The notes: generated from the sequence alone by a model not told the origin. A stretch of DNA of 64,000 nucleotides from an uncultured Alphaproteobacteria bacterium (GCA_963800155.1 CAWDAB010000004.1:26755-90754); one strand, 5' to 3'; positions 16,008 through 43,987 are shown, numbered from the stretch's first letter. Numbers and translations: made by a program.

Positions 16008-16020
16008 GCGAGATGCTCCT

Positions 16021-23498: not shown

Positions 23499-23513
23499 GC
23501 CTGACCGTCTTCG

Positions 23514-23831
23514 ATGATCGACTTCGACGCCCTGGTGCTTGGGCCCGTCTACGACGCGTTCGGCGAGCCTGCCGTGCTCACGCTTGCGTCGGCGAGCCAC
23601 GACGTAACCGTCATCGATCACACCCAGGGCGTCGAGGTCGAGGATGGCGGGATCGGGCTCCAGACGATTCGCTCCGCGGTGGACCTGCGGCGCAGCGCGC
23701 TTCAAACGCTCGGCATTACCGTCGCCGATCTCGTCGGCGGCGAGCTCGTGCTCGGCGGAGCAACTTGGCGTGTCAAGAGCGTGATCGAGAACGGCCTCGA
23801 GCTACGGCTCATCGTCATGCAGGACCAATGA
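23514..23831 (+). CDS. Head-tail connector (FII-like)
   Basis: Position and size; beta-rich sequence. Confidence 0.6.
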   Translation: MIDFDALVLGPVYDAFGEPAVLTLASASHDVTVIDHTQGVEVEDGGIGLQTIRSAVDLRRSALQTLGITVADLVGGELVLGGATWRVKSVIENGLELRLIVMQDQ

Positions 23832-24284: not shown

Positions 24285-24830
24285 ATGCCTGTATCTCTGA
24301 TCGCGCCCGACGCCGATAACTACCAGGTCGGCAAGGGCATCGTGTCGTTCAAGCCGGACGGCGCCGCCGATTACATCGATCTCGGCAATGTTGCCGAGCT
24401 GGAATACACCCCGAACATCGAAAAGCTCGACCACTATTCGAGCCGCGCCGGCACGCGCACCAAGGACAAATCAGTCGTGCAGACCCGCAGCGGCACGCTG
24501 CGCATCCTCATGGAGGAATTGACGGCGCAGAACCTGTCGATGCTGCTGATGGGCACGGTCGATGATGCCGCCGTCGGCGGGCCTACCATCGACATCATGG
24601 CCACGGACTCGATCCGCGGCGAGGTGAAATTCGTCGCCACCAACGACGTTGGCCCGCGCTGGGATCTGCAGTTCTACAATGTAGAGTTCAGCCCGTCTGG
24701 CTCATTCAACCCAATCTCGGATGAATGGAACCAGATCGAGGTGACCGGCGAGGTGCTGTTGGCAGCCAGCGGCGCAAACATCGGCAAGATCGGGCTTGCG
24801 CAATTGACCAATCTGCCGGCCGCGCCGTGA
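24285..24830 (+). CDS. Major tail (tube) protein
   Basis: Strong RBS, 181 aa, precedes the chaperone pair. Confidence 0.7.
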   Translation: MPVSLIAPDADNYQVGKGIVSFKPDGAADYIDLGNVAELEYTPNIEKLDHYSSRAGTRTKDKSVVQTRSGTLRILMEELTAQNLSMLLMGTVDDAAVGGPTIDIMATDSIRGEVKFVATNDVGPRWDLQFYNVEFSPSGSFNPISDEWNQIEVTGEVLLAASGANIGKIGLAQLTNLPAAP

Positions 24831-24853: not shown

Positions 24854-25285
24854 ATGGTCAGCCTGCTCGACATTGCCGATCAGCAAAAGACTGTCACGAT
24901 CCGGCACAAGGACGTGGCGGTCTTCGGCATTTCTGCCCAAGACATCGTTTATTTGTTCGGCAAGTTCCCCGAATTGCGCCTGCTGATGTCCGGCAAGCAG
25001 GCTGATCTGACCCCGGAAACGCTGCTCAAGCTGGCGCCCGGCGCCGTCGCCGCCGCGATCGCCGCTGGTACCGGCTCGGCCGGTGACGAAAACGCCGAGG
25101 CGGTCGCGGCGCGATTAGGCCTTGGCGAGCAGCTTGATCTGCTCGCGGCGATCTTCGAGCTGACCTTCCCGCAGGGCGTTGGCCCTTTCGTCGCAAAGCT
25201 GGACGCGCTCGGTCTGCTCAGAAACGCCGAAGCCGCGTCTGGATGGGCTCGGGATACGACATCGCCCGCGCCGTCGAAGAGCTGA
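24854..25285 (+). CDS. Tail assembly chaperone (gpG-like)
   Basis: Position, plus an overlapping -1 frame ORF. Confidence 0.65.
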   Translation: MVSLLDIADQQKTVTIRHKDVAVFGISAQDIVYLFGKFPELRLLMSGKQADLTPETLLKLAPGAVAAAIAAGTGSAGDENAEAVAARLGLGEQLDLLAAIFELTFPQGVGPFVAKLDALGLLRNAEAASGWARDTTSPAPSKS

Positions 25286-25473
25286 TCCACGGCGGCCACG
25301 CGCGCGCCGATGTCTGGAAGATGACGCCCCGGCAGATGGCCGCCTGGATGCAATTGGCCATGCGCCGGAAATTCGGCGAGCGGGCCCAATTGCTGACGCT
25401 GATGCGCGCCGCGCGCGGCGATGACAGACATTTCCAGGCGTTCTTGCGCAAATTGCAGGACGAATCGCAATGA
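25183..25473 (+). CDS. Tail assembly chaperone extension (gpT-like), candidate -1 frameshift product
   Basis: In-frame heptamer C CCT TTC at 25183-25189; the -1 frame is open to 25473 (contains W.MTPRQ). Confidence 0.5.
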   Translation, partial: PFRRKAGRARSAQKRRSRVWMGSGYDIARAVEELIHGGHARADVWKMTPRQMAAWMQLAMRRKFGERAQLLTLMRAARGDDRHFQAFLRKLQDESQ

Positions 25474-26012
25474 CCTCGATCAGCTTGCGGCCGAAGCCCG
25501 GCCAGGGCCCGAAAGATGCCGCCAAGGCGCAGAGCGCTCGCCTGCGTAAGGCAATCACCAGCACGGCCTACAAGATCGCCTCGGAAGTCCAGCAGCGCGG
25601 GCGTGTCGACATCGCGCAAGCCGGCCGCTTCGGGCCCAACTGGATTTTCGGACTGCGGGCCTTCAAGCAGCGCAAGGAGCCAGGCACCAGTCGCACGGTC
25701 GTCACGGTCAAGCACAACATCCCATTCGCGGAGATCTTCGAGGAAGGCGGCGTCGTCACAGGCAAGCCGCTGTTGTGGATTCCGATCAGCACGGAAAAAG
25801 ATGCGGTCGGCATCCGTGCGCGCAAATTCAATCTCCCGCTGTTCCGGATCACGAGCAAGCGCGGCACGCCGCTGCTGATCACGCCGAAAGGCAAGCCGAA
25901 GTATTTCGGCGTCCGCTCCGTCACCGAGCCGAAGCTGTTCCACATCCGCCAGATCGCCAACGACGTGGCCAAGCGCGCGGGCGATTATTTCCACTCCTAC
26001 TTGGACGGATAA
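25470..26012 (+). CDS. Basic phage tail-completion/neck-type protein (gene X)
   Basis: Coupled to the chaperone; natively precedes the tape measure gene. Confidence 0.6.
   Translation: MTSISLRPKPGQGPKDAAKAQSARLRKAITSTAYKIASEVQQRGRVDIAQAGRFGPNWIFGLRAFKQRKEPGTSRTVVTVKHNIPFAEIFEEGGVVTGKPLLWIPISTEKDAVGIRARKFNLPLFRITSKRGTPLLITPKGKPKYFGVRSVTEPKLFHIRQIANDVAKRAGDYFHSYLDG
25845..26012 (+). repeat. Arm A (3' 168 nt of gene X)
   Basis: Homologous to 28514-28681; 47/55 aa identical by manual alignment. Confidence 0.9.
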
Positions 26013-26172
26013 TCCAGACCATCGCACTCACTAAAGCGGCAGCCATAGCCGTACGTCGATCTAAGGCACAGCCAGCACGTCGCGACCCGCCCTCGAAAGT
26101 CTGCTTGGGGCAAAGCGCAGATGGGCTAAAAACCGGCTAGACTCGGTAGCGCAGCCTTCTTTATTCTTGAAG

Positions 26173-26400
26173 CTATCGTACCTCGACAGTTTCGATGCGG
26201 TCGCACTTGGTGCATTTGTATCTTCTTAGCTCGCGAAGTGGTCCCGCCTTCAAATAACTCGTGACGAGCTGCATTGCTTGCCCGCTACAGGTGCAGCGAG
26301 GTGCGTCTGATAGATGATTATCCGATGCTTCGCCAGGCACGTATGGTGAAGTACAAAATAATTTGCATCGTAGCAATGCATACCATACTACCGACCGCAC
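26173..26400 (-). CDS. Small putative Zn-ribbon protein (cargo 1)
   Basis: CxC...CxxC pattern; start uncertain. Confidence 0.3.
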   Translation of the reverse strand: MRSVVWYALLRCKLFCTSPYVPGEASDNHLSDAPRCTCSGQAMQLVTSYLKAGPLRELRRYKCTKCDRIETVEVR

Positions 26401-26607
26401 CGCGCCATTTCAATCAGGCCAGAGGTTAGGACAGAACTGCTGCTGCTTGTCTGATCGGCCACGTGGTGCGGCCGCGATTGGCATCCCTGGCGCGAGTAGC
26501 TGTCGGCTGGGATGTGCGGCTCACTTTGCAATTCTCAAGCGCAATATTTATCGCCTGAATTGACCTGGCTCAACGCGGAACTTCGCGAACGCGATAGTTG
26601 GGCTGTC

Positions 26608-26799
26608 ATGATCGAATTTGACCGCCTATCGAAGCTTGCGGAAAGCTTTTACCGGCAAGCCAGAAGTACAAGTGATGGACTGAAGCGGCGAGCGCTCATG
26701 CAGCGGGGGGATCGACTCCTCAAAAAGGCGCAGGACTTGCGTCGCGAGAGTATCGACACCACGCAGGCCGTCTATCCCGAGTCCGATTTAAACATTTAG
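26608..26799 (+). CDS. Small helical hypothetical protein (cargo 1)
   Basis: 63-aa ORF starting MIEFDRLSKLAESFYRQAR. Confidence 0.4.
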   Translation: MIEFDRLSKLAESFYRQARSTSDGLKRRALMQRGDRLLKKAQDLRRESIDTTQAVYPESDLNI

Positions 26800-27000
26800 C
26801 GCGGTTGAAAGAGAAGGATGTCGCCCTTGGCCCGATCGGCGGATACGCGTCATAATGGATTTTAATGGCGACGAGATCGCGCTGCCGCCGCGATACGGTT
26901 TCGGCGAACAGGAGTGGTGCTGCCGGACACAATTAAACATGTCGGCTCTCTCCTTACCAAGGATTACTACTGTGTTTCGATCGTCACGATCGCTTGACGG

Positions 27001-28104
27001 TCAATTCGCCTTTTTCAATTGCGGTTGATGCACAAAGGCCATCGTCACTCGCAGTCCCTTGCCTCGACAAGTTTCGAAACTGAAATCGGTTTTCACGTTC
27101 TCGCGTAGCGACTGAAGGATTAGCGCACCAAGCTTGCCCGGAACCGGCCAACTCGTATCCTCGGGCAGGCCGCTGCCGTCGTCCGCGACGACGATCCGGT
27201 AGACGTCGCCATCCTCGTGCAGGCAGCGCACTGTGATAGTGCCGCCCTTACGGCCCGTAAACGCGTATTTAAATGCGTTGGTCATCAGCTCGTTGACTAA
27301 GAGGCCGACCGGCATGGCAATGTTAATTGATGCGGGCGCATGGTCGACTTTCAAGTCGAGCCGGATACCATCGACCGCGTAAGTGTGCATGACGGCCGAA
27401 GCGATCTCGCTGACATAGTGACCAAGATCGACGGCTTGGCCGAGGCCTTCCGTGGATAAGTCCTTGTACAACAGTTGCAGCGCTTCGATGCGACCCGCCA
27501 AGCGGTCAAGATTGACCTTGTCACCGTTGCGCTGGCTGCGCGCGTCAAGCCGGATCAGTGCGGTGATGAGCTGCAGATTGTTTTTGACGCGGTGCTGCAG
27601 CTCCTTGAGCAGCATGTCTTTGTCGCGCAGCCGCTGCGCGAATTCCTCACGCTGCGTCCGCTCCCGCTCGGTCACGTCGATGAGGGCGACGATGCGGTAG
27701 GTTTTGCCTGCATCCTCGTTCTCGATTATGCCCGTATAGGCCTCGACCAGCATAAGCTTCGGCTGCTCGCGCCGGAAAGTACCAATGAAGTCGTCGCTCT
27801 TGGAGAGCGCTACGCCGAATGAGAGCTGCGGCTCATCTTCGAGGCAGAAAGAATCGAGAATGGACCAGCCACGGCCGATGATGTCCTGGTGGGCTTGGCC
27901 AGTCAGCGCCTCATAGGCTTTGTTGGCGTAAACGATACGCTGGTCGCCGCGCACAACCTTGGAGATAACGATGGCGATTGGAATGTGATCGAGAAAAACT
28001 CTGAATTCTCCGGTCTCGATCGCTTGTGTCTTTTCCAACGAATCGAACAGGTCGTTAACCGCCTGTTCGGTCGGTTGGGCTGAGTGCCCGTCAGGAGTGG
28101 TCAT
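27001..28104 (-). CDS. PAS + HisKA_2 sensor histidine kinase (cargo 1)
   Basis: PAS domain (IVYANKAYEALTG), H-box LKELQHRVKNNLQ, ELMTNAFKYAF and DDGSGLP. Confidence 0.88.
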   Translation of the reverse strand: MTTPDGHSAQPTEQAVNDLFDSLEKTQAIETGEFRVFLDHIPIAIVISKVVRGDQRIVYANKAYEALTGQAHQDIIGRGWSILDSFCLEDEPQLSFGVALSKSDDFIGTFRREQPKLMLVEAYTGIIENEDAGKTYRIVALIDVTERERTQREEFAQRLRDKDMLLKELQHRVKNNLQLITALIRLDARSQRNGDKVNLDRLAGRIEALQLLYKDLSTEGLGQAVDLGHYVSEIASAVMHTYAVDGIRLDLKVDHAPASINIAMPVGLLVNELMTNAFKYAFTGRKGGTITVRCLHEDGDVYRIVVADDGSGLPEDTSWPVPGKLGALILQSLRENVKTDFSFETCRGKGLRVTMAFVHQPQLKKAN

Positions 28105-28253
28105 GTAAGTCCTCGGCCGATTGCCGGCGCCGCGAGATGACCCACCGAATGACCCCGGCATCCCAATGGGGAGAGATTCAGGCGCAGATAAGGCGGACAT
28201 TGGCTGCGCCGCGCTACAAAAGCCAATTTATGAGTGCACCGCGCGAATAAGCT

Positions 28254-28514
28254 ATGTCCGACAAGATCATCACCGAGATCGTCATCGAGGGCGAGAAGGA
28301 AGCCATTGCCGGCATCCAGCGCGTCGGCAAAGCGGCCGATGCCGCTTTTGCCGATCTTAAGGATGTCCAGCTCAGTTTCGACTTCATCGAACTCGAGAAG
28401 GGGCCGAAATCGCTGACCGACGCTGGACAAAGGTTCGCCGCGTCGATGAAGAACACCGGCACCGTCGTGACCAGCGTGTTTGCCGGCATTAGTAGCGCCT
28501 TCCGCAACGCCGGC
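28254..28514 (+). repeat. Arm B': diverged copy of the first 87 codons of the tape measure gene
   Basis: Homologous to 33040-33300; 73/87 aa identical by manual alignment. Confidence 0.92.
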
Positions 28515-28681
28515 GCATCACCAGCAACAAGGGTACGCCGCTGCTGATTACGTCTAAGGGCAAGCCGAAATATTTCGGCGTCCGCTCAGTCAGAGAGCCG
28601 AAGCTGTTTCACATCCGTCAGATCGCCGACGACGAGGCTAGGCGCGCCGGCGATTATTTCCATTCTTATCTGGATGAATGA
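28514..28681 (+). repeat. Arm A': diverged copy of the gene X 3' end, abutting B'
   Basis: Reads RITSNKGTPLLITSKGKPKYFGVRSVREPKLFHIRQIADDEARRAGDYFHSYLDE*. Confidence 0.92.
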
Positions 28682-28750
28682 TCGAGTGGAGGCCGAACCT
28701 AGGCAGGACGTATTCAAGCGAACTTATCTGGATGGAGTCCTATGATTGGC

Positions 28751-29602
28751 TCATTGCCGTCGCTTGGCACCTGAGCCAATAACGAATTCAAGCTCCGTCT
28801 CGAAGCGGCCGTCGCTCTCAAATTGAGCGATACATTCGCGTACTTCGGCCCAAGCGGTTGATCGCTTTGTTTCGTCCAGATCCGCGATAACCGCGCGATA
28901 GGCGCCAAACGCTTGCTGCATCATTTCGAGCGTGATGTCAGCGCTCGGCAACCGTATTGGCGCGCGTGCGATCACCATTCTCACATCCACCAAACCACAA
29001 GTTTCGAGCAAGCTCTTCAACACCCCGTCGCCCCCCAAGGCAAAGATTCCAGGTTGCCCCGCGGCGGGAGGCTGTTTGCCGCCATGTCGCAACAGGATTC
29101 GCATGGGTTGAGCCATGAATGGATTATTGGCCGGTGTGGAGAAAACCAGCGCAGCGAAGCGCCGTCCTGGCTTGAGTATGCGCTGAATTGCCATCACCGC
29201 GTCGGCTGGTGACGGAAAGAGCATCAAGCCCATTCGGCACATTGCTGCGTCGAACGGCACCAGCTTTGCGCTCAAATCCTCCGCCGCGCATTCCAGCGTC
29301 TCTATATTGCCGATGCCCTCCCGTTCCGCGTGCTGGCGGACATGTTGCAACATGGTGCTTGAAATATCGCTAGCCACGATGACGCCATTCGAACCGACGC
29401 GCTTGGCGGCCTGGATTGTCTGAGCTCCGGCGCCGCAGGCAAGATCAAGGACGCGATATCCGAGTTCGATTCCGGCCATGCTGATCAGAGTATCAGTGAC
29501 GTCTGCGAGTCCGTCTGAAAACGCAGTTTCCCACTTTGCCCAGCCAGGTGCCGCAAACTCCCAAGTAGCTCGAAGCTCTGAGTTCGATGTCTGGCTGATC
29601 AT
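28751..29602 (-). CDS. Class I SAM-dependent methyltransferase (cargo 2)
   Basis: Motif I VLDLACGAG and FDAAMCRMGLMLFP. Confidence 0.85.
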   Translation of the reverse strand: MISQTSNSELRATWEFAAPGWAKWETAFSDGLADVTDTLISMAGIELGYRVLDLACGAGAQTIQAAKRVGSNGVIVASDISSTMLQHVRQHAEREGIGNIETLECAAEDLSAKLVPFDAAMCRMGLMLFPSPADAVMAIQRILKPGRRFAALVFSTPANNPFMAQPMRILLRHGGKQPPAAGQPGIFALGGDGVLKSLLETCGLVDVRMVIARAPIRLPSADITLEMMQQAFGAYRAVIADLDETKRSTAWAEVRECIAQFESDGRFETELEFVIGSGAKRRQ

Positions 29603-29669
29603 TAGCCTCAAATCCCTATTACGGATGCACCAGCAAGCAATGCCGGCGTGGAGATGGTGATCGTTTGGA

Positions 29670-30131
29670 CTAAGAGTATGCCAGCCGTGACGCTTTAAAT
29701 GCCCATCGGCACAGCGCCCACAGAAATAAAGCGAACAGAAAATGTGGCACCGCCGAGGCGACAATCAGTTTGGGCGTGACGGCCAGCCCGAGAAAGCCCC
29801 AGCCGACGATAGGAAAGAAGAACACGAGGACAAGAATCCATAGCGCGGCGCCAAGCCCCAGCGCGCGAAGGAATGTCAGCGCGTCGCGGAACAGGCCGAC
29901 ATAAATTACCGAGAAGGCCGTGACCCAGATGGTGTGGAAAAGCAGGCCCACAGGAAGCGGGAGGGGACAGCTCAACACCGATTCAGCGAATGCAAGCCCC
30001 AGCGGCTTTGGGAAAGGCGAAACACCCGATTTCAAGGCTGCCACCATAACCGCCGCAGTCAAAATGGAAACGCCGATCCCCACGCCTACCGCGCGCGTCC
30101 AATCTTGCGAACTTAGCGAATGCCATTTCAT
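29670..30131 (-). CDS. Integral membrane protein, about 4 TM (cargo 2)
   Basis: Hydrophobic 153-aa ORF starting 2 nt after the GDCCVxC stop; two intramembrane His residues. Confidence 0.7.
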   Translation of the reverse strand: MKWHSLSSQDWTRAVGVGIGVSILTAAVMVAALKSGVSPFPKPLGLAFAESVLSCPLPLPVGLLFHTIWVTAFSVIYVGLFRDALTFLRALGLGAALWILVLVFFFPIVGWGFLGLAVTPKLIVASAVPHFLFALFLWALCRWAFKASRLAYS

Positions 30132-30133
30132 GA

Positions 30134-30364
30134 TCAGCCTCCATTCGGTTCGCAGCCGCAACCTGTGCTGCAGCGACTTTGTGCCTGCACCGGCGGACAC
30201 GGGACCGAGCCGTAGGAGCAGAACACGCAGCAATCGCCGGGCCTGGGCTTGAGGCGCGCGCCGCAACCGCTGCAGTCATAGAAGAACTGGCAGGCGTCGG
30301 TCGGCATCAACTCCAGCTTGGCAGTGCCGCAATGCGGGCAAGTGATCAGCGATTGCTCAGCCAC
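30134..30364 (-). CDS. GDCCVxC-domain small Cys-rich protein
   Basis: ITCPHC, CQFFYDC.GC and PGDCCVFCSYGSVPCPP motifs. Confidence 0.85.
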   Translation of the reverse strand: MAEQSLITCPHCGTAKLELMPTDACQFFYDCSGCGARLKPRPGDCCVFCSYGSVPCPPVQAQSRCSTGCGCEPNGG

Positions 30365-30378
30365 GGTCTGTTTCCGAT

Positions 30379-30663
30379 CTAGCTTTTCGGGGCCGACGGA
30401 TAACCGGCATTGGTCGTCGCCGCCGTAAGCGCTCTCACGTTCGTCTTGGCGTCGTCATAGGTGACCGTCGCGGTCTTCTGCTGAAGCGAAACCGCGACCC
30501 GCTCGACGCCGGGCAGGGCTTGCAAGCTCGCCCTGACGGTGTGCGGACAGGCCGCGCAGTACATGTTCTGGACCGCGAGCGTCACTGTTCTCTCAGCGGC
30601 GAATGCGTTTGAGGCGGCGGATAAACCCATTCCGACGATAAGTGCGATGAGCGGTATCCTCAT
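30379..30663 (-). CDS. merP: Periplasmic mercury-binding protein MerP-like
   Basis: Signal peptide plus HMA domain NMYCAAC; C-terminal TTNAGYPS. Confidence 0.85.
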   Translation of the reverse strand: MRIPLIALIVGMGLSAASNAFAAERTVTLAVQNMYCAACPHTVRASLQALPGVERVAVSLQQKTATVTYDDAKTNVRALTAATTNAGYPSAPKS

Positions 30664-30678
30664 GACTTCTCCAATCGT

Positions 30679-31059
30679 TCACGAGAGCAGGTAGGGCGCC
30701 ACGAAGTCGAACCCGAAGGCGGCGATGACGATGACCGTCGCCGCCACCAGGACGGCCATCACCAGCCGGTTGGGTAGCGGGCGAGCACAAGCCTGGTTGC
30801 CGGTGCAGGCCTGGCGCGACGCGCGGTAGACGAGCCAATAGCCGCTGCTCAGAAAGGCAACCGCCGCCGCGACGAAGAGTGGTTGATAGGGGGCGAGCTG
30901 GGTGAAGTTGGCGATCCAGGCGCCGCTGACACCCAGGCTGAACAGCACCACGGGCAGGATGCAGCAGGATGACGCGGCAAGCGCCCCTAGCAGGCCGCCG
31001 AGGGCCAAAGCCTGGACGCCGCGACCGCCGACTTGAACCGATCGTGATTTGATGCCCAT
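30679..31059 (-). CDS. merT: Mercuric transport protein MerT-like
   Basis: ASSCCILP in TM1, PYQP and cytoplasmic CxxxxxCARP. Confidence 0.88.
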   Translation of the reverse strand: MGIKSRSVQVGGRGVQALALGGLLGALAASSCCILPVVLFSLGVSGAWIANFTQLAPYQPLFVAAAVAFLSSGYWLVYRASRQACTGNQACARPLPNRLVMAVLVAATVIVIAAFGFDFVAPYLLS

Positions 31060-31066
31060 GACCCGG

Positions 31067-31097
31067 ACGCTACAATCTGTAGCGGCTACAGAATCAA
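31067..31097 (-). promoter_or_regulatory. MerR-type promoter/operator for merT
   Basis: -35 TTGATT, 19-bp spacer, -10 TAGCGT, and dyad TCTGTAG-N3-CTACAGA at 31076-31092. Confidence 0.85.
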
Positions 31098-31109
31098 GGC
31101 GGACCGCTC

Positions 31110-31535
31110 ATGCATGCGATCACAGATTCGCGAGGTCTCGGCATCGGGGCGCTGGCCAGCCTGACCGGCGTCAATATCGAGACCATCCGCTACTACGAGA
31201 AAATCGATCTTATGCGGCCGCCGCCCCGTACAAGCGGCGGACACCGCAGCTATGCCGCCGAGCACGTGGAACGGCTTCGCTTCATCCGCCGGGCGCGGGC
31301 TTTGGGCTTCGGGATCGAGGGAATCCGCGCCTTGCTGACGCTGTCCTCCGGCGCGACCGAATCCTGCGCACAGGCGCGAGAGATAGCCGCCGCCCATCTC
31401 GCCGAGGTGCGCGCCAAGCGGGATGATCTCGCCAAGCTGGAAGCGATACTGTCGGGGACGATCGCGCAATGTGATGCGCGATGTTGCGACGGCGCCGCGC
31501 CCGTCTGTCCGGTGCTCGAAATTCTGGAGTCCTGA
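31110..31535 (+). CDS. merR: MerR-family metal-responsive regulator
   Basis: HTH IGALA..TGVNIETIRYYE; Cys residues near the MerR C82/C117/C126 positions; divergent from merT. Confidence 0.85.
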   Translation: MHAITDSRGLGIGALASLTGVNIETIRYYEKIDLMRPPPRTSGGHRSYAAEHVERLRFIRRARALGFGIEGIRALLTLSSGATESCAQAREIAAAHLAEVRAKRDDLAKLEAILSGTIAQCDARCCDGAAPVCPVLEILES

Positions 31536-32147
31536 ATGGCGATCTCGAATTTCGAGCGATATCAACGCATCGCATGGGCCTACGATCTGCTGGACCTGCC
31601 TTTCGAATATGGGCGCTATCGCAAAATCAGACCGCAACTTTTCAACGGCCTCTCCGGCCGCATCTTGGAAGCTGGGGTCGGCACCGGACGCAATTTCCCC
31701 TTCTATCCGTCCGGTTCCAACGTCGTTGGCATCGATTTTAGCCCGGCGATGCTCGCCCGAGCGCGACGCCGGCTCCCCACGGCCTCGGCCACAGTGGAGC
31801 TACATCAGATGGACGTGACGCGATTGGAATTTCCTGATCGCTCGTTCGACGCGGCGGTAGCCACGTTCCTTTTCTGCGTGCTTCCCGACGAGTTGCAGGT
31901 TGCGGGGATGCGAGAGCTGCGTCGTGTCGTAAAGCCCGGCGGCATTATACGCTGCCTCGAATATACCCGTCCAAGCGGCGGGCTTCGCCGTGCGATGACG
32001 CGGATTTGGGAGCCCTGGGTCAATTGGGCCTACGGCGCTACTTTTGACCGTCAGACAGAACAAAGAGCCCCGGAGGCAGGCTTAGAACTTTTCGAGTCGC
32101 GGTTTGTGCATGATGTGCTGATCAAGCTCCTTGCGGCGCGGGCCTGA
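31536..32147 (+). CDS. Class I SAM-dependent methyltransferase
   Basis: ILEAGVGTG and FDAAVATFLFC motifs; abuts the merR stop. Confidence 0.85.
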   Translation: MAISNFERYQRIAWAYDLLDLPFEYGRYRKIRPQLFNGLSGRILEAGVGTGRNFPFYPSGSNVVGIDFSPAMLARARRRLPTASATVELHQMDVTRLEFPDRSFDAAVATFLFCVLPDELQVAGMRELRRVVKPGGIIRCLEYTRPSGGLRRAMTRIWEPWVNWAYGATFDRQTEQRAPEAGLELFESRFVHDVLIKLLAARA

Positions 32148-32180
32148 CATTCGTACCAGAAGTTAAGTTGGGGAGCCGGC

Positions 32181-32960
32181 ATGCCGCCATTGCTCGACAA
32201 CAAAGACCCCGACGCAAAATCGATTTTTGTCGCTTCCGCACTCTTGCGTGAAGCACGGCGTCAAAAAGGGCTTGCGACCGTCAATGTCCCGTCAATCTGC
32301 GTGCTTGATCCGGACGGCGATATTGTACGGCATCTGAAAGCAAGGAATCTTGCCCACATATCACGCGACTGGCCATGCTATCACAGCGAGCTCTATACAT
32401 TCGAGCTCGCTGGACAGGTCGCTGGCATCATCGGTTGCGCGGTGGGTGCTCCGTTTGCCGTCCTGATCGCGGAGGAGCTATTTGCAAGCGGCTGCGGATT
32501 TCTGATCAGCATCACATCTGCAGGTCAGATCACGCCGGTTGGTAAACCTCCATACTTCGTCATCATAGATCGTGCCTTACGTGACGAAGGAACAAGCTAT
32601 CACTACGCCGCGCCTTCAGAATACAGCGAAGCAGATGCGCGGTTGATTGGCACTGCTGCGCGCGCGTTGAAGACCAATGGCGTAGATTCCCTTATCGGTT
32701 CAAGTTGGACTACCGACGCACCGTTTCGCGAAACCGAGGAGGCAATGGCTGCCGCTCGGGCCAAAGGCATTCTGGCCGTCGAAATGGAAGCTGCGGCGCT
32801 TTATGCCTATGCTCAAGCCGCAAGTAAAAATGTCCTTTGCCTTGCCCACGTCACGAACACCATGGCCATCTCTGAAAGAGATTTCGAAAAAGGGGAAGCC
32901 AATGGCACAGTCGATGCCCTGCGTGTGCTGGAAGCCATCATAGCCGGCCTTAGGCCATAA
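32181..32960 (+). CDS. Nucleoside phosphorylase-like protein (PNP/UDP family)
   Basis: RDEGTSYHY, WTTDAPFRET and AVEMEAAALY motifs. Confidence 0.82.
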   Translation: MPPLLDNKDPDAKSIFVASALLREARRQKGLATVNVPSICVLDPDGDIVRHLKARNLAHISRDWPCYHSELYTFELAGQVAGIIGCAVGAPFAVLIAEELFASGCGFLISITSAGQITPVGKPPYFVIIDRALRDEGTSYHYAAPSEYSEADARLIGTAARALKTNGVDSLIGSSWTTDAPFRETEEAMAAARAKGILAVEMEAAALYAYAQAASKNVLCLAHVTNTMAISERDFEKGEANGTVDALRVLEAIIAGLRP

Positions 32961-33039
32961 GAGTTCTGATCGACATCATCTCAATTCGACTTTGCCATGC
33001 TCACGCAACCGAACTTATGAGCGTTCGGCCTAACCAGCC

Positions 33040-35891
33040 ATGTCCGACAAGATCATCACCGAGATCGTCCTCGAGGGCGAGAAGGAAGCGATTGCCAGCA
33101 TCCAGCGCGTCGGCAAGGCGGCCGACGCGACCTTCGCCGATCTCCAGAACGTCCAGCTCAATTTCGACTTCGTCGAACCCGAGAAGGGGCTCAAATCGCT
33201 GACCGACGCGGGCCAGCGGTTCGCCTCGTCGATGAAGAACACCGGCAATATCGTGACCAACGTGTTCGCCGGCATCACTAGCGCTTTCCGCAACGCCGGC
33301 ACCGTGGGTGGCGGCGTCTTCTCGGAATTGACGCGCTCGCTGCAAGCCACGAGCCTGGTGGCGAAGGCGGCCGGCGTGCAGATCCCCTCGCTCGGGCGTA
33401 CCGTTTCGGCGCTCGGCCGCACCGTCGATTCCTTCAGCGGCGGCGCGCGGACGGCGGCGCTGAATACGACCGACTTCGGGCAGGCGGTCGCGGCCGACCG
33501 GCCCGCAACTTAGCGGCTCGGTCGCAAGCCGCCTTCAATCTGGGGCGCAATATCGGCGACGTGGGCGTGAGCCGCGGTTCGGGTCGCGACCCAGATCGTC
33601 AAGCTGGTGACAGTCGTTTCGCTGCTCGGCACCGCCGTCATCGCGGCATTCGGCGCGCTGGCGAAATCGGCGTCGACCGCCATCAATGCGGTCGGCGAGG
33701 CCGCGCGCAATGCCAGCATATCGGTCGACGCCTACGACAAGCTCATCATCGCGCTGCAAGGCTTAGGGATCAGCAGCGAGGACGCGCAAGCGGCGATCAC
33801 GGCGATGTCGGCGCAATTGGCGCGCTTCGGCATCCGCTACGGCCCCGATTCGGCCGGCGTCGCCGATATGCTGGCGAACAATTTCGCGCGGCTGGCCGAC
33901 CAGGTCGCGTTCAATATCGACCCGGTCAAGCAGTTGCAGATCGCGCAAGCGGCCCTCGGCGCCGAGCTTGGCAAGAAGCTGTTGCCGCAGCTGCGCATGG
34001 GCGGCGATTATTTCCGGCAGATGGCCGACGATACGCGGATCGCCGGCATCGCGTTCAATAAGCTCGACGATTCGAATGCAACCAAGTTCATTGTCGCGTG
34101 GTCGCGTCTTTCCACGATCATCGGCCAATTGAAGAACAAGATCGGCGCGCAATTTGCCGAGCCGTTCGCGCGCGCCATCAATATCGTCACCGAGCTATTG
34201 CTGCAAAACGCGCAGGTTATCCTGCAATGGGCAGTCCGATCTCGCGTCGGCGACCGGCCCGATGCTGGTCGATCTCGCGCGCGCCTTTGCCGGCCTCGAT
34301 AAGGACGTCCAGAACAAGAATATCCTGGCGTTCCGCGACGCGATCTTCGGCATCGGCAAGGCTATCGGCTTTGCGGTCGCAAGCGGTGGTCGGCGGCTTC
34401 AAGCTGATGGTGGCCGCCATCAAGCCGGTGACCGATGCAGTCAACAATCTGTTCGGCACCCAGATCACGGCCGGCGAGGTCGTCGCCTATGCGGCGATCC
34501 TGCAATTGATCGGCGCCTTCCGCCTGCTGTTCTCGGTCGCGACCGGCATCGGCGCGTTGGCGTCGCCCTGGACGCTGGTGGTCGTCGCCATCGGCGCGGT
34601 CCTCGTGGCGCTGGGATACCTCGCCTACAAGTATTGGCCCGAAATCAAGCAGGCGGTCGCCGACGCCACGCAGTGGATGAAGGACAAGTTCGGCGAGGCC
34701 TGGACGGTGGTGGCGGGTGCCGCCGCGACTGCCGCCGTCGCCGGCATCATCTATCTGATCGGGCTTATCCCCGGCGCGCTGGCGGGCGCCGTTGCCGGCA
34801 TTGCGGCGTTCGGCAGCGCGGTTGCCGCCGCAATCGTCGCGGCGCCGTGGGTCGCGCTCGGCATCGCTATTGCCGGCGTCGTCGCCGCGCTCGGCGTGCT
34901 GGCCTACGAATATTGGCCGCAGATCAAGGCCGCGGCGCAAGCGACCTGGGCCGCGATCAAGAGCGGCGCCGCTACTCTCTGGACCGATATCCAGGCGGCC
35001 TGGAATGCCGGCGTCAGCGCGCTCAACAGCCTGTGGCAATTGCTCGTCTCCGGCGCGCAATCGGCCTGGTCGCTGATCACGCAAGGCGCCTCGACCCTGT
35101 GGGCCGGCCTGCAGAGCGTCTGGTCGTCCGGCGTCGCCGCCGTCTCGGCGCTGTGGTCCGGGCTTACGACCGGCTGCGCAAACCGCCTGGGATACGCTGG
35201 TGGCCGGCGCCAAGGGCGCGGCGTCCGCGATCAATACGCTGTTCGCCAACATCATCGGCTACCTGTTCGGCAACCAGCTGGCGGGCGATCTGCAAGCCGC
35301 CTTGCCGCTGTGGGACCAGATGGCGGGCGCGGCCGAATCCGCGATGTCGCGGATCAATGCCGCCGTCGCGAGCGCCACCGCCGCCGTGAACCAATTGAGC
35401 GCCGCGCTCCAGCAAGCGGCGGCGACCGCGCGGGCGGCGCAATCGGCGATGCAGGAGGTTGCCGCCGGCGGCGGCGCGGCAGGCTATGCGCGCGGCGGGC
35501 CCATTCGCGGGCCGCGGCACATCGACATCGGATTCGGTTCTGCTGTGGGGTTCGCGCGGCGAATTCATGCAGCCGGCGCGCGCGGTCGCCCATTACGGCC
35601 TCGCCTTCATGGAGGCGGTGCGCACCTTGCGCCTGCCCATCCCGCGCTTTGCGACCGGCGGCCTCATCGACGGGCTGTCGAATGCCTTGATGAGCCCGCT
35701 CGCGCCGTCGCTGGCGATGCCGCAACCGGCGCCGGTCGCCGCTGTCGCCGTCGCGCATTCTCAACCTGACCATCGGCAACGAGACGTTCGGCGGCTTGGC
35801 GGCCGATGAGGACACCATGGAGCGGCTGACGCGCTTTGCCGTGCGCCAGCAATTGCGCTCGTCGGGGCGCAAGCCGGGCTGGAATCGCTGA
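33040..35891 (+). CDS. Tape measure protein; multiple frameshifts
   Basis: Ala-rich helical segments with Trp-periodic repeats across ORFs 33040, 33607, 34098, 35200 and 35459; C-terminal GG.I.G.GTSTSDS..GEF motif. Confidence 0.8.
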
Positions 35892-35903
35892 AAGGAAGCG
35901 CAA

Positions 35904-36334
35904 ATGGCGGACGAAACCGTGCTCTCGCTTCTGGGGCTCGGCGTGCCGCCCTATTCCGCGCGCGGCCTGACGCAAACCCTGGAGCCGCTCGACCAGGCGA
36001 CCAGCCTGGCCGCGCACGATCAATGGCGAGCTGATCGATCTGTCGCGCGCAGAATTCCGCAAATACAAGTCGACCATCAGCGGCACCGATCAGCGCCCGC
36101 CGTCCTGTGACGGGCTTTGGCCCGGGCGCCAGATCGTCGTCGATTGCATCGAGGAACTTGCCTATCCGGACGGCGGGACGCCGCAGCGGCCGGTGGTCGA
36201 AGGCTCGTCGTTTTCCGGAAGCCGGCTTCACCTATTACCGGCCGCGGCTGACCATGGTGGTGACGGATTTCCAGCTGTCGCGCGACGAATATGGCGCGCA
36301 GGTCGGCTGGTCGATGAGCCTTGAAGAAAAATGA
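35904..36334 (+). CDS. Putative distal tail protein; frameshifted
   Basis: Follows the TMP with an RBS; PPYSARGLTQTL start and TMVVTDF..LEE end lie in different frames. Confidence 0.5.
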
Positions 36335-38325
36335 ACGCCGATTTCACCGATCAAGCGAGCTTGCGCGCGCGGCTTCGCATCGGCAGCATCGGGCCGTTCT
36401 ATTTCGCCTGGGCGGACAAGAACGAGGCGTTCGATCCGGCGGTGCACGCGCGCATCGACGAGGACATTTTCAAGTTCGATGTCGATCACAGCGAGGGCGA
36501 TTTCGCGACGCTGACCGCGATCGTCCGCAACCCGCGCATCGGCCTCTTGGCGCCGTCGCGCCGGGTCTGGGCCTGGCTCTCCTGGCAGAACGGCGCCGAT
36601 CTCGTGCCCCTGTTCTACGGCCGGCTGGTCGGCGTGCCGACCGACATCAATCAGGAACTGGTGACGCTGGTCTTCACCGCGCGCCCGGCCGATTTCGTCG
36701 CGCTGAAAGCGGCCAAGGCCGAAACGTTGAAGGTGCGGCCCTATTACGATCCGATCTGGATCAATCCCGACGCGCTCGATGATCCCGACACCGTGCTCGA
36801 GGCGCGTTCGGCGCTCTGGTCGATCGATCGCGTCACCCACGAGGTCGATATCTCCGATGTGCTGGTCGGCGAGGATGGCATCGAGGATTTTGGGCCCGAC
36901 GAGGTGCCCTACGACTCGGTCAAGATCAATCTCGGCGAGACGCCGCTGCGCAGCGTCTCGGTCGACGCCACCATCAATTGGACGCAAAGCGCATCGGGCA
37001 CGCTTGCACTTCGGCCTCAACGTTGCGACCTACACCGGGCAATCGCTGATTTCGGATTGGCCGAAGCCCGGCGCGACGCTCGGCGGCGGCTGGACGGTTG
37101 TCGCCGCCTCGGCGCGCGATCTCAACGATGTCGAGAACGTCGATACGGTCAATTGCACCGTCAATTGGCAGAACCAGGAGAAAAAGCACGCAACCGGCGA
37201 CACCATGTCGGTCAGCATTTCAAGCTCGGTGCCGATCATGCGCGGCCCGTACCTTTACACCGACCTGATGCGCAAGTTTCAGACCGGCGTCATCGACGAA
37301 GGCGGGCCGGACAGCGATCCGATCAATATCCCGGCAACGCAGGAAAGCACCGGGCTTTACGTGCCGCTCTGGCAGGTCCAGGCGAGCATGACGCTGAAAT
37401 ACGACGCCAACCGGCCGCGCAAGGAGCATGCGCGCTTTACGCTGACGACCGATGTGCAGGACATCGTCACGCTGGCCGAGGACGCCGATGTTCTGGCGAT
37501 CACGCTGGACTCGCAGGATGTCGGCGCCGCCGTCGCCGGCGGCCCGCCGCCCATCGGCTATCTCGGCCGGCGCTCCTATCTGCCCACCGATCGCGGGCTG
37601 TGGAGCCTCGAATATCTGATTGCGCTTGCGCGCGCGCATCTGCTGATCCGCTCGCGCTGCGTCGAGATCACCTTCGCCTGCACCTTCGAGCGCGCCGTCG
37701 CGCTGTCCTGCCGCAAGAACGCGCCGGCTATTCGACGACCGCCTGCCGGGCGGGCAGGCGCTCGGCAAGATCATCGACTACAAATTCGGCGTCGATGGCT
37801 GCAATGGCCTCGCCATCGGGTCGGTGACCATCGGCTGCGCCATCGGCTATGGCGGCGCGGTGCAGGAGCAGCCCGGCGAGCCGACCTATGCGGCGCCCGG
37901 CTACATGGCGCGCCGGCTATCAGGCCTATGCAATCGTCGAGGTCGCGCTGCCGGCGAGCGATGTGAGCTATGCGCCGCCCATCGACGCGCCAAATGATGA
38001 CGGGCTCGCGTTTCCGCTGTCGAAAAGGCAGGCGGTGGTGCGCGAGCAGGTGCACGGCTCGGCCGACGCGCAGGGCGGCGCCATCGAGGCGTCGTTCCCC
38101 ATCGATATCGAGGTCAACAACGCGCAGCCGCAGAACGTGAACGAGCAGAACCGCATCGCGGCGCTGCAATCGCAGACCACGACCGAAATCCTCAAAGGCA
38201 ATGCCGTCTGGTACGACCTCGAATTGAAGCCCGTCGCCGGCATGTCCTTCGAGACGGCCTATGACATCGCCGTCTCGGAATTGAAGGTGCCGAAGATGAT
38301 CGATCTTGAGGCCGCATCGTCATGA
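36331..38325 (+). CDS. Putative tail hub/baseplate protein; frameshifted
   Basis: Joined from ORFs 36331, 36779 and 37849; beta-rich; expected position. Confidence 0.5.
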
Positions 38326-38663
38326 CCAGCCTTGAGCGCATCGTGCGGCCGTTCCAGTCACGGGACGTGACGCCGCCGCAGCGGATTTTGAATCCGAGCG
38401 AGCCGCCGGTCGACAATGTGCTGATCCAGTGCGGGCAGACCGGATCGACCAAGACGTTCAATTCGAGCTACTCGAGCACGATCACGTCCTACGTCGAAAG
38501 CAAGCACCGCGAATTCAGCCGCGAAACCAGCATCAAGCGCATCACCAATCCGGACGACGAAACGCAATACGTCGATGTCGAGTTGATCGACAAGCTCAAG
38601 ACCTCCGGCGTCAACGGCCAGGAGACGACCTTCACCTACAAGAACAAGAGCAATGGCGCTTGA
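38322..38663 (+). CDS. Hypothetical tail protein
   Basis: Coupled to both neighbours by overlaps. Confidence 0.55.
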   Translation: MTSLERIVRPFQSRDVTPPQRILNPSEPPVDNVLIQCGQTGSTKTFNSSYSSTITSYVESKHREFSRETSIKRITNPDDETQYVDVELIDKLKTSGVNGQETTFTYKNKSNGA

Positions 38664-39503
38664 TCCCCCATGGCGGCTCGACCCTCACCAAAGCATTGTC
38701 GAGGTCGGCTGGGGCGCCGCGAAGATCGCCGCACTGGTCTTGAGCATCGATTATGTCGGCGGTGATGCTTTCAGCGATACGCCGGCTTTGAGCGGCCTGC
38801 CGTTCGGCACCACGTTCAATCTGCTGGCGCAGATCGGCGCGCCGGGTGACACGCCGATCGTCAATCCGTTTTCGTCCGCCATGCTGGCGCACGAATACAT
38901 GTGGAGCCGGCCGCCCTGGTCCGACCAGCATTCGGAAAGCCACACCTATGAGGCGACCGTCGTCGACGAGGCGATCTGGAACGGCTGGGCCTATGGCGGC
39001 GGCTCGCCGCTCGGCGGCGTGCGCGTCCCCTACCACGACGGCGTGCCCGATCAGGATGTGCTGCAACAGGCAATCGACGGCTGGGTCGAGGGCTACGGCA
39101 TCCCCGCCGACCAGATCTATTGGATCATCTGGGAGGTCACCGCCTCGCACACCGAACTCCAGACGATCAATCAGTTCTTTTATTCAGCGCGCATGCGATC
39201 GTCTTTTTCAATCTCGGCCGGATCAAAGGGCTGATCAGCCCGTCCCGCTCGCTGACCTTCGAGATCGCGACGGCCGGCGCATCGAGCAGCACCTATTACC
39301 GATGGGCGCTTGGCGTCGGCACCTATAAGGGCACGCGCGATTTCCCCTCGGACGCTCAATGCAATCCGACCTGGACCGGCGTGCCGGTTGCTGCTGCCGG
39401 CACCGCAAGCCCGAACGTGCCTGAGACCGCGATGCCGGCCTGCACCAGCTCTTTCGCGATTGATCTCGACACGCTCGAGGTCACCGCCGAACGCCTGCCG
39501 TAG
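38653..39503 (+). CDS. Hypothetical tail protein; frameshifted
   Basis: Joined from ORFs 38653..39234 and 39120..39503. Confidence 0.45.
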
Positions 39504-39512
39504 AGAACGTGA

Positions 39513-40286
39513 ATGGTCGCCCTGAAATACCGCACCGACGACAATGCCCAATGGGGCGCCGGCCTTGGCCGCGATCTCCAGCCCGCAGGAGATCGACCAG
39601 AATTTCTATGACGTTGAACAGCGGCTGGAGGCGGTCGAGCAGAACCCGGTGCTGCCCAACGAGATCGAATCGATCTCGCGTTGACGGCAACCGGATGACG
39701 ATCACCATGGCCGATCATACGGTGTTCGGCCCCTACATCCTGCCGCAAGCCGCCTTCCGCTTTACCGGCGCCTTTCAGCCCAACCACGATTACCGGCTTT
39801 ACGATTTCCTGGTCGCCAATGACGGCCTCTATCTGGTGCTGCACGATTTTACCTCGGGCGACGCCTTCGTGTTCGGCGCCGACGCGCAAGGCCCGTTCTA
39901 TCAGTTCATCCTGCCGTTCCCGAGCAACTACGACATCGCCTTCTTTTTCCCGGGTCCGCCCGGGCTTGGCATTGTCGACGGCGCGGCGATGTTCGCTTTC
40001 CGCGCTTCGGCCCGCACGCCGTTCTATCTGCCGGCCGGCTTGCCCGACTCCTCCGCCGGGCTTGCCGATCGCGCCGACCGCCGCCCTGTCCTGCGCGATC
40101 TATCAGGACGCAACGCAGATCGGCACGCTTGATTTCGCGGCCGGCAGCACGGCCGGCACCTTCACTTTCGACCAGGCCATCCAGTTCAACGCCGGCAATA
40201 CGCTGCGCGTCATGCGCCCCGCGGCGCTCGATGATACCGCGCTCGATCTGAGCATCCTGTTCGCCGCGGTGAAGGGAACGCTGTGA
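39513..40286 (+). CDS. Tail adaptor-type protein; frameshifted
   Basis: Manual reading MVALKYRTDD...AAVKGTL; the C-terminal 71 aa match the second copy at 63326-63542 (1 aa difference). Confidence 0.6.
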
Positions 40287-40287
40287 C

Positions 40288-43795: not shown

Positions 43796-43987
43796 AGCGA
43801 GCGCGGATCAACCCGCGCCCTTCCCTTAAATCCCAAAACTGACGGCTTGGCTGTCGGCGCGCGCGGCGCGCCGCACATGCACATGCGCGTCTTCAAGGCG
43901 AGCCGACCTCGGAATGACGGCGCGCAGGTCGGCGCGCCGCCGCCCAATTCGGCATCGGCCGACATCCCCCACCACAGCGAGGACTTG

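What the first reader, a model, noticed from the sequence alone, without database searches (positions are those of the whole stretch)
25845..33300. Cargo cassettes bounded by phage homology arms: A-cargo1-B'A'-cargo2-B
Seen: the junction between gene X and the tape measure gene is split by two unrelated cargo blocks (26013-28253 and 28682-33039). Between them, a diverged 261-nt copy of the TMP start (B', 73/87 aa identical) is joined directly to a diverged 168-nt copy of the gene X end (A', 47/55 aa identical), in reversed order relative to the phage. Each cargo is therefore bracketed by an A-type left arm and a B-type right arm. Inference: a small circle (arm-cargo-arm, closed at the B'/A' junction) derived from a related phage integrated by single crossover, much like a natural gene-targeting vector. 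Repeating this would build an integron-like cassette array without an integrase or attC sites. This is the best candidate in the window for an undescribed system.
Basis: partly seen in the sequence, partly recalled or inferred. Interest (0 to 1): 0.85.

Follow-up and report, generated by a model that had tools for sequence, protein, structure and literature searches.

The report
Two cargo blocks at a prophage hot spot
In a soil-bacterium prophage, the gap between a small tail-region gene and the tape measure gene is a genuine hot spot where related phages each carry different borrowed host genes, but the unusual "two cargos in a row" layout is seen only in this one assembly and is either a single recombination accident or an assembly error, not a cassette-collecting system.

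Summary
A (25845-26017) and A' (28514-28686) are 83% identical. B' (28250-28514) and B (33036-33300) are 88% identical. B' abuts A' directly. The element is a lambda-like siphovirus prophage (about 14.8-46.1 kb). Gene X is a DUF6441 protein.

Eleven related phage loci at about 88-97% identity show that the X/tape-measure junction is a real accessory-gene hot spot. Two relatives have no cargo. The other nine carry seven or eight different cargos of 1.6-5.5 kb, including AbiE, two-component systems, transporters and FolE. None shares DNA with cargo 1 or 2.

None of the relatives has an internal B'A' joint or a second cargo. The array idea therefore has no recurrence behind it.

The right arm (33497-41715) carries 20 private one-base insertions and no deletions. 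Fourteen of the 20 write two alleles of a polymorphic site side by side (p = 3e-9). The consensus therefore mixes two phage haplotypes right beside the finding.

My estimates:
- One non-homologous join between two related phages with different cargos: about 0.45.
- Two alleles written in series by the assembly: about 0.35.

The parts
24854..25473 (+). Tail assembly chaperone pair (24854-25285 and overlapping 25243-25473)
   Evidence: phrog_5260 tail protein, E = 4.7e-13. The homologue in L044 hits Pfam Pre_tape_measure.
25470..26012 (+). Gene X, a 180-aa DUF6441 protein. Its last 168 nt (25845-26012) form arm A.
   Evidence: PF20039 DUF6441, E = 1.3e-5, just below the cut-off; phrog_6367. 87-94% identical homologues sit in the same position in 11 related loci.
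26013..28253 (.). Cargo 1: about 1 kb without a recognised gene, then a PAS-HWE histidine kinase (27001-28200, minus strand; called as 367 aa in the protein collection).
   Evidence: Pfam HisKA_2, HWE_HK, HATPase_c and PAS. The closest relative is 86% identical and lies between rsfS and rlmH in a core chromosomal neighbourhood. Homology to that locus covers only 27001-28196.
28193..28253 (+). Conserved cargo right-end element, copy 1, directly upstream of B'
   Evidence: Alignments and blastn.
28254..28514 (+). B': the first 261 nt (87 codons) of a tape measure gene. It runs out of frame into A' (ORF 28254-28547, 97 aa).
   Evidence: 88% nt and 73/87 aa identity to B. It has 15 private codons, 8 of them non-synonymous.
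28515..28681 (+). A': the last ~168 nt (55 codons plus stop) of a gene X allele
   Evidence: 83% nt and 47/55 aa identity to A. Most of its variant letters also occur in relatives L008, L013 and L021.
28682..33039 (.). Cargo 2: methyltransferase (28751-29764, -), membrane protein (29670-30266, -), MerP-like (30379-30663, -), MerT (30679-31059, -), MerR (31110-31535, +), methyltransferase (31536-32147, +), PNP/UDP phosphorylase (32181-32960, +). The last ~55 nt are the right-end element, copy 2.
   Evidence: Pfam hits. The single genes have 66-81% nt relatives scattered over family chromosomes, but the block as a whole was found nowhere else. Element.
33040..35890 (+). Tape measure gene. Its first 261 nt are arm B. 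It is written with 8 extra single bases that break the frame. The gene is 933-947 aa and intact in five relatives.
   Evidence: phrog_3981 and other TMP families.
33497..41715 (+). Stretch of the right arm where the consensus mixes two haplotypes (20 private 1-nt insertions)

Best explanation
Shown: the junction between gene X (DUF6441) and the tape measure gene is an accessory-gene (moron) hot spot of a lambda-like temperate phage lineage of soil Xanthobacteraceae-type bacteria. In the cargo-less state the X stop codon lies 6 nt before the tape measure ATG. Other lineage members carry 1.6-5.5 kb of unrelated, mostly host-like genes at that point.

Inferred: the window's layout A-cargo1-B'|A'-cargo2-B arose once. 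Two related phage genomes, about 12-17% diverged in the arms, each carried its own cargo at the hot spot. They met in one cell as a double lysogen, or as a prophage plus a superinfecting phage. They were joined by one non-homologous break-and-join. The join ran from nucleotide 261 of the tape measure gene of phage 1 to 168 nt before the end of gene X of phage 2.

The product keeps one complete set of structural genes. Heads, gene X, cargo 1 and the B' fragment come from phage 1. The A' fragment, cargo 2 and the tails come from phage 2. It also keeps both cargos and 429 nt of dead gene fragments.

The arms are leftovers of that accident. They are not targeting sequences of an acquisition system.
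For: - Hot spot: L006 and L012 have X abutting the TMP gene. L007, L008, L009, L010, L013, L015, L021/L037 and L044 carry different cargos at the same point.
- The joint has at most a 4-nt CCGG microhomology and lies at non-homologous positions of two different genes. This is the signature of illegitimate recombination.
- Each unit is a complete allele of the locus. Each has an X end, a cargo, the conserved ~60-nt right-end element and a TMP start. That is expected if two ordinary single-cargo phages were the parents.
- The A/A' and B/B' divergences (82% and 88%) lie within the range seen between family members.
- B' carries an excess of private non-synonymous changes (8 of 15 private codons; pN/pS 0.20 against 0.08 in the family). 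This fits a dead fragment that has drifted for some time.
- A second, 79-83% identical fragment of this phage's tail-fibre region lies 20 kb downstream at 63318-64920. Related phages have therefore left rearranged remains in this neighbourhood before.
- From my knowledge of overlap- and graph-based long-read assemblers, they need reads that link B' to A' before they write this path.
Against: - No read-level check of the joint was possible.
- The joint ORF is on record only from this one contig.
- None of 11 relatives shows anything similar.
- The consensus immediately right of B is a demonstrable mix of two haplotypes. Two versions of this very locus probably coexisted in the sample.
- A' shows no sign of relaxed constraint (pN/pS 0.16 against 0.21 in the family), which is unexpected for an old dead fragment.
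- The B' excess is not statistically significant.
- The combined cargo (7.0 kb) exceeds that of any relative (5.5 kb or less).
Confidence: 0.45

Rival explanations
1. Assembly artefact. The sample held two haplotypes of this prophage that differ at the hot spot: L-A-cargo1-B'-R and L-A'-cargo2-B-R. The assembly or consensus step wrote both alleles one after the other (a heterotype false duplication). Neither phage has two cargos, and the B'|A' joint does not exist in any molecule.
For: - The right arm has 20 private 1-nt insertions and 0 private deletions relative to four relatives with intact genes.
- In 14 of the 20, the extra base equals an alternative allele of the neighbouring column. Only 12.2% of ordinary bases do so (binomial p = 3e-9). 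The consensus engine therefore did write two alleles in series at SNP scale, starting 200 nt after B.
- The left arm and both cargos are free of such errors. That is expected if the cargo blocks are haplotype-specific.
- B' ends 1 nt after the last B/B' difference, and A' starts 5 nt before the first A/A' difference.
- The bin contains redundant contigs: C13 = C14 = C11:100388-117062.
- Adjacent false duplications of diverged alleles are documented in long-read assemblies (PMC9516828).
- Earlier notes of this scan describe the same class of error in other MAGs. These are leads, not evidence.
- The layout is unique among 11 relatives.
Against: - A direct B'-to-A' adjacency has no shared sequence. 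Overlap- or graph-based assemblers should not produce it without supporting reads (my knowledge of these programs, not tested here).
- Polishers that make one-base double alleles work on small windows and are not known to insert 4.8 kb.
- The two haplotypes would have to be identical over at least 9.6 kb of the left arm while differing at 20 or more sites in the right arm.
- The right-arm mixing can equally come from reads of another related phage that map only to the better conserved tail genes.
- The excess of private non-synonymous changes in B' is unexpected for the start of a working tape measure gene.
Confidence: 0.35
2. A small circle (A'-cargo-B', closed at the B'|A' joint) derived from a related phage integrated by a single homologous crossover into a resident phage that already carried a cargo. 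Repetition would stack cassettes.
For: - The foreign material (B' plus A' plus one cargo) is a circular permutation of a contiguous X-cargo-TMP segment. A Campbell-type insertion gives exactly this.
- Such circles can arise when a tandem duplication collapses (established genetics, my knowledge).
- Cargo-bearing relatives share a ~60-110-nt element upstream of the TMP ATG. This extends the homology available for a crossover.
- Phage recombinases tolerate 10-20% divergence (PMC3945230).
Against: - It needs two rare events where one is enough.
- No reciprocal hybrid arms or switch point were found. B' differs from B, and A' from A, along their whole length. A crossover would have to lie in the first 30 nt of the TMP gene or in the upstream element.
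- No relative carries two cargos or an internal joint.
- No recombinase, integrase or attC-like repeat is present in or next to the cargos.
Confidence: 0.1
3. Old tandem duplication of the whole X-end/cargo/TMP-start segment in one phage, followed by replacement of one cargo copy and divergence of the arms.
For: - Direct orientation and a single novel joint.
- B' looks partly decayed.
Against: - Cargo 1 and cargo 2 share no sequence.
- A 12-17% arm divergence would need a very long time, yet no relative shares the duplication.
- A' still looks constrained.
Confidence: 0.05

Closest known systems
Morons and mosaic joints of lambdoid phages (HK97/HK022 model of illegitimate recombination followed by selection; listed in the reference list of PMC10884400; the rest from my own knowledge)
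   Same: Extra genes unrelated to virion function are inserted between two conserved late genes. Related phages have different content at the same point. The joints lie at or near gene boundaries. Left-over gene fragments mark non-homologous joins.
   Different: The cargos here are large (up to 5.5 kb) multi-gene blocks of ordinary chromosomal type (kinases, transporters, regulators, mer genes), not single small genes. A promoter or terminator of their own was not demonstrable.
Accessory or defence hot spots of temperate phages and satellites (P2/P4 hot spots; PMC13586616 and bioRxiv 10.1101/2024.10.15.618418)
   Same: A fixed position between conserved core genes shows rapid turnover. At least one cargo is a defence system (AbiEi/AbiEii in L044).
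   Different: This is a different phage type and position (between a DUF6441 gene and the tape measure gene). Most cargos are metabolic or regulatory rather than defensive. Only 11 relatives were sampled.
Relaxed homologous recombination between temperate phages and defective prophages (PMC3945230)
   Same: Diverged flanks of 80-90% identity could mediate exchange of the DNA between them. This is the likely route of cargo swapping at this hot spot.
   Different: A double crossover replaces cargo. It does not explain the permuted B'|A' joint, which is non-homologous.
Heterotype false duplications and mixed-haplotype consensus errors in long-read assemblies (PMC9516828)
   Same: Two diverged alleles are placed next to each other at the border between shared and divergent sequence. 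Double-allele one-base insertions occur nearby.
   Different: The documented cases are mostly diploid eukaryote assemblies, often with a gap or an unsupported junction. Here depth and junction support could not be examined.
Integron cassette arrays
   Same: Only the superficial picture: unrelated gene blocks in series at one site.
   Different: No integrase, no attC or attI sites, no promoter-proximal array logic, and no second example of more than one block.

Membership tests
Phage moron / accessory-gene hot spot | Variable gene content at one fixed position between conserved genes in related phages | tested here: met
   Two loci have no cargo. Nine loci carry 7-8 different cargos, all starting at the X stop codon and ending at the TMP start.
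Phage moron / accessory-gene hot spot | Cargo unrelated to virion function and of different composition | tested here: met
   Pfam annotations. G+C is 0.53-0.62 against 0.63-0.68 in the arms.
Phage moron / accessory-gene hot spot | Own promoter and terminator flanking the inserted gene | tested here: inconclusive
   The consensus scan found no more sites than in shuffled sequence.
Integron | Tyrosine-recombinase integrase next to the array | tested here: not met
   None of the ORFs in or beside 25.4-33.5 kb has an integrase domain.
Integron | attC-type imperfect inverted repeats at cassette ends | tested here: not met
   No inverted repeats lie at the cargo ends. The shared right-end element folds weakly, at -6 kcal/mol with one covarying pair.
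Integron | Arrays of several cassettes recurring in relatives | tested here: not met
   0 of 11 related loci have more than one block or an internal arm remnant.
Campbell-type insertion of a circle by one homologous crossover | Reciprocal hybrid copies of the homology segment, with a switch point | tested here: inconclusive
   No switch lies within A/A' or within nt 31-261 of B/B'. A crossover in the first 30 nt or in the upstream element cannot be excluded.
Campbell-type insertion of a circle by one homologous crossover | Existence of the circular form | not testable with these tools
   This needs reads or outward PCR.
Tandem join by illegitimate recombination | Novel joint between non-homologous positions with little or no microhomology, and units in direct order | tested here: met
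   TMP nt 261 is joined to X nt -168, and only CCGG is shared.
Heterotype false duplication (assembly artefact) | Evidence that two haplotypes were merged at or beside the site | tested here: met
   20 private insertions and 0 deletions. 14 of 20 are double alleles against 12% expected (p = 3e-9).
Heterotype false duplication (assembly artefact) | Each copy at partial read depth and no read crossing the joint | not testable with these tools

The most novel reading that the evidence does not exclude
Diverged flanking gene ends (X end, TMP start, and the conserved ~60-nt element upstream of the TMP start) act as natural homology arms. Circular or tandem intermediates from related phages repeatedly add cargo blocks through them. 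This phage lineage would then build multi-cargo arrays without a site-specific recombinase. The window would be the first caught two-block array.
Probability: 0.06. Interest if true: 0.7.

Novelty: new member of a known kind. Interest (0 to 1): 0.3.

Why it matters
The solid result is a newly described accessory-gene hot spot in an uncultured lineage of soil temperate phages. It sits between a DUF6441 gene and the tape measure gene. These phages ferry ordinary host genes there: a histidine kinase that normally lies between rsfS and rlmH, mer genes, transporters, FolE and an AbiE defence pair. This is useful for understanding how prophages move chromosomal genes between soil bacteria, but it fits the known picture of morons and phage hot spots.

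The striking two-cargo layout would, if real, be a clean snapshot of an illegitimate-recombination intermediate of phage mosaicism. If it is an artefact, it is a warning. Long-read MAG consensus can write alleles in series and thereby imitate rearrangements and pseudogenes.

Tried and rejected
- Other copies of the arms in the same genome: none found.
- Protein search among 300 genomes of the same family: only 34-40% identical relatives of X. The lineage is rare in reference genomes. Close relatives came from MAG, IMG/VR, metagenome and Logan contigs instead.
- Search for truncated TMP starts elsewhere. It found frameshifted TMP genes in error-rich assemblies (L021, L037). It also found one real stranded fragment (L022-L026), which lies among host genes and is not in an array.
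- Rfam scan of 25-34 kb: nothing.
- Promoter/terminator scan: no more sites than in shuffled sequence.
- Consensus fold of the shared right-end element: weak.
- Exact look-ups of the kinase and the PNP protein, to find single-cargo parents: nothing on record.
- Tests for a crossover switch point and for relaxed constraint in the arms: no switch point. B' is suggestive and A' is not, and the numbers are too small.
- Genome-wide search for other adjacent diverged duplications: several exist, but they cannot be told apart from ordinary paralogues.
- Real decay of the tail genes was rejected. There are 20 insertions and 0 deletions, the insertions sit at polymorphic sites, and substitution divergence is not raised.
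The second closure stopped a check of whether haplotype mixing extends into the host genes right of the prophage.
Full report
OBSERVATION

The repeat search returns exactly the pattern described. B' (28250-28514) matches B (33036-33300) at 88% over 265 nt. A (25845-26017) matches A' (28514-28686) at 83% over 173 nt. B' ends where A' begins.

Pairwise alignments show that A/A' homology ends at the stop codon of gene X. B/B' homology starts weakly some 40-60 nt upstream of the tape measure (TMP) ATG. The joint reads ...AACGCCGGCGC|ATCACCAGC.... The parental contexts (B: GCCGGCAC|CGTGGG; A: GTTCCGG|ATCACG) share at most CCGG, so the joint is non-homologous.

Protein identities are 73/87 and 47/55, as stated. 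The B' ORF runs out of frame into A' and stops after 97 codons. There is no further copy of either arm in the 6.2-Mb genome.

WHAT THE ELEMENT IS

The region is the late operon of a lambda-like siphovirus prophage. The genes are:
- a ParB-methylase at 14067-15398;
- small and large terminase;
- a lambda-type portal;
- an S49 protease;
- the major capsid protein at 22476-23498;
- the major tail protein at 24285-24830;
- the tail chaperone pair at 24854-25473;
- gene X at 25470-26012 (DUF6441);
- the TMP gene from 33040;
- distal tail genes and a Gp80-like fibre protein;
- a GH108 endolysin at 43847-44809.

Collinearity with relatives runs from about 14.8 kb to 46.1 kb.

Cargo 1 holds a PAS-HWE histidine kinase. 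Cargo 2 holds merR, merT, a merP-like gene, two methyltransferases, a membrane protein and a PNP/UDP phosphorylase.

The kinase is a common chromosomal gene (thousands of homologues). In its closest relative (86% identical) it sits between rsfS and rlmH. In this genome rsfS and rlmH are adjacent, and the phage copy is the only copy. Only the gene and about 90 nt upstream were captured.

The genes of cargo 2 have 66-81% relatives scattered over family chromosomes, but the block as a whole occurs nowhere else.

THE LOCUS IS A REAL HOT SPOT

Scans of genome, viral and metagenome contigs, plus protein look-ups, gave 11 distinct related loci at about 88-97% nucleotide identity in the flanks.

Cargo-less loci:
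- L006 and L012. The X stop codon is followed by CCGGCG and then the TMP ATG.

Cargo-bearing loci:
- L007: 5.5 kb (two-component system, PepSY proteins, cytochrome b561, Na/Pi-PhoU transporter).
- L009: 4.0 kb (MFS transporter, DHDPS-like aldolase, LysR).
- L008: 2.9 kb (GTP cyclohydrolase I, XRE-cupin regulator, SOUL protein).
- L044: 2.5 kb (AbiEi/AbiEii).
- L010: 1.7 kb (two unknown proteins).
- L021 and L037: 1.6 kb (DUF1330).
- L013: at least 2.3 kb (MFS transporter, plus 1 kb shared with L007).
- L015: at least 0.8 kb.

None shares DNA with cargo 1 or cargo 2.

Where the right end is known, eight of nine cargos end in a related 60-110-nt element just upstream of the TMP ATG. Both window cargos have it, and the cargo-less phages lack it. 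Some cargos also share left ends:
- cargo 1 and L009 over about 130 nt;
- L010, L015 and L044 keep TGACCCGCCA.

The simplest reading is one or a few ancient insertions, followed by repeated replacement of the interior. This is the usual behaviour of a hot spot between essential genes.

NO RECURRENCE OF AN ARRAY

No relative has two blocks, and none has an internal remnant of X or of the TMP start, by blastn or by tblastn at E <= 1.

A search for short TMP-start proteins found only two things. The first was frameshifted TMP genes in error-rich assemblies (L021, L037). The second was a 128-nt TMP start with its upstream element, stranded between host genes in five metagenome samples (L022-L026). 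That is a prophage scar, not an array.

THE ASSEMBLY MIXES HAPLOTYPES NEXT TO THE FINDING

The TMP gene is intact (933-947 aa) in five relatives but broken in the window.

Against relatives, the window has 20 private single-base insertions between 33497 and 41715, two more at 45145 and 45181, and no private deletion. The 9.6 kb of left arm has no frameshifting indel, and the cargo genes are intact.

In 14 of the 20 sites the extra base equals an alternative allele that relatives carry in the neighbouring column. Only 12.2% of ordinary bases do so (p = 3e-9; examples). A 79-83% identical partial copy of the tail-fibre region at 63318-64920 lacks the insertions that copy 1 carries.

These are consensus artefacts of two haplotypes piled on one contig, not gene decay. 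The genome also contains redundant contigs. Earlier notes of this scan report the same error class in other MAGs. I treated those as leads and tested the claim here myself.

WEIGHING THE EXPLANATIONS

Three readings give the same sequence.

(a) One non-homologous join between two related phages, each with its own cargo. It needs one event. It fits the joint without homology. It fits the fact that each unit is a complete allele with its own right-end element. It fits arm divergences typical of the family. It has weak support from an excess of private non-synonymous changes in B' (8 of 15 private codons; pN/pS 0.20 against 0.08). A' shows no such excess.

(b) Two alleles written in series by the assembly. 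This is supported by the proven allele-in-series errors that start 200 nt after B, by the uniqueness of the layout, and by documented heterotype false duplications (PMC9516828). Against it:
- there is no overlap between B' and A' that an assembler could follow;
- window-based polishers are not known to insert kilobases;
- it requires identical left arms but polymorphic right arms.

It is topologically valid. However, it needs two rare steps, it leaves no visible switch point, and it has no recurrence.

I put (a) at 0.45, (b) at 0.35, (c) at 0.10 and an old tandem duplication at 0.05. The remainder is unassigned. The decisive test is whether reads cross position 28514.

COMPARISON WITH KNOWN SYSTEMS AND NOVELTY

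The hot spot is a new member of a known kind. Comparable cases are morons in late operons and phage accessory hot spots (PMC13586616, PMC10884400 and 10.1101/2024.10.15.618418). The likely exchange route is relaxed homologous recombination between diverged flanks (PMC3945230).

It is not an integron. There is no integrase, no attC-like site and no array in relatives.

The two-cargo layout is at best a one-off recombination intermediate and at worst an artefact. Interest is therefore modest. It rests on the hot spot itself, on its host-like cargo, and on the conserved element upstream of the TMP start.

Noticed in passing
window 33497-41715, 45145 and 45181: About 22 single-base insertions break the tape measure and distal tail genes. 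There are no deletions. 14 of 20 tested insertions are two alleles of a polymorphic site written side by side, which is a mixed-haplotype consensus artefact and not pseudogenisation.
   Followed up: yes
window 28193-28253 and 32986-33039; L007 15960-16074; L008 13385-13493; L009 14408-14524; L021, L037 and L044 just upstream of the TMP ATG: A conserved 60-110-nt non-coding element lies directly upstream of the tape measure start in 8 of 9 cargos with a known right end. It is absent from the two cargo-less phages. It ends in CTAACTAAGC-ATG-like stop-rich sequence. Its function is unknown; it may restart TMP expression. It folds weakly.
   Followed up: partly
L022-L026 (for example L022 2767-2957): The same upstream element plus the first 128 nt of the tape measure gene are stranded between host genes. 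A TonB-like gene and an FGE-sulfatase gene lie upstream, and a hydrogenase-4/complex-I-like membrane subunit lies downstream. This occurs in five metagenome samples and looks like a conserved prophage scar.
   Followed up: partly
window 27001-28200; own genome C15:241214-242006: The cargo 1 histidine kinase is the only copy in this genome of a gene that sits between rsfS and rlmH in its closest relative. In this genome rsfS and rlmH are adjacent. A phage is therefore carrying a core-neighbourhood host gene.
   Followed up: yes
window 40060-41250 and 42901-43318 versus 63317-64920: A 79-83% identical partial copy of the tail-fibre region lies 20 kb downstream of the first. It is beyond the prophage end (about 46.1 kb) and after host-like genes. 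It lacks a 1.65-kb middle segment. It is a remnant of a second related phage.
   Followed up: partly
window 23498-23514 and 15710-16439: These are further variable sites of the phage family. L009 and L010 carry 1-4.5 kb between the capsid gene and the next gene, where the window has 15 nt. The window has 730 nt at 15710-16439, where L008 and L012 have 55 nt.
   Followed up: no
own genome contigs C13, C14 and C11:100388-117062: The same 16.7-kb sequence is present three times (99.97-99.99%), twice as whole contigs. This points to redundant contigs in the bin.
   Followed up: partly
window 46251-48489 (minus strand): A P-type cation ATPase is split into two ORFs (332 and 348 aa) with about 190 nt between them. 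It lies just right of the prophage end. Whether this is an artefact or a real break was not resolved.
   Followed up: no
window 16671-18872 versus own genome C8:319753-321955: An 86% identical large-terminase segment on another contig shows a second related prophage in the same genome. That prophage has no matching gene X or tape measure gene.
   Followed up: no
L021 8691-9071 and 19411-19797: Two DUF1330 paralogues (76% nt) occupy two different accessory sites of one phage: the X/TMP hot spot, and a site after the Gp80-like fibre gene.
   Followed up: no
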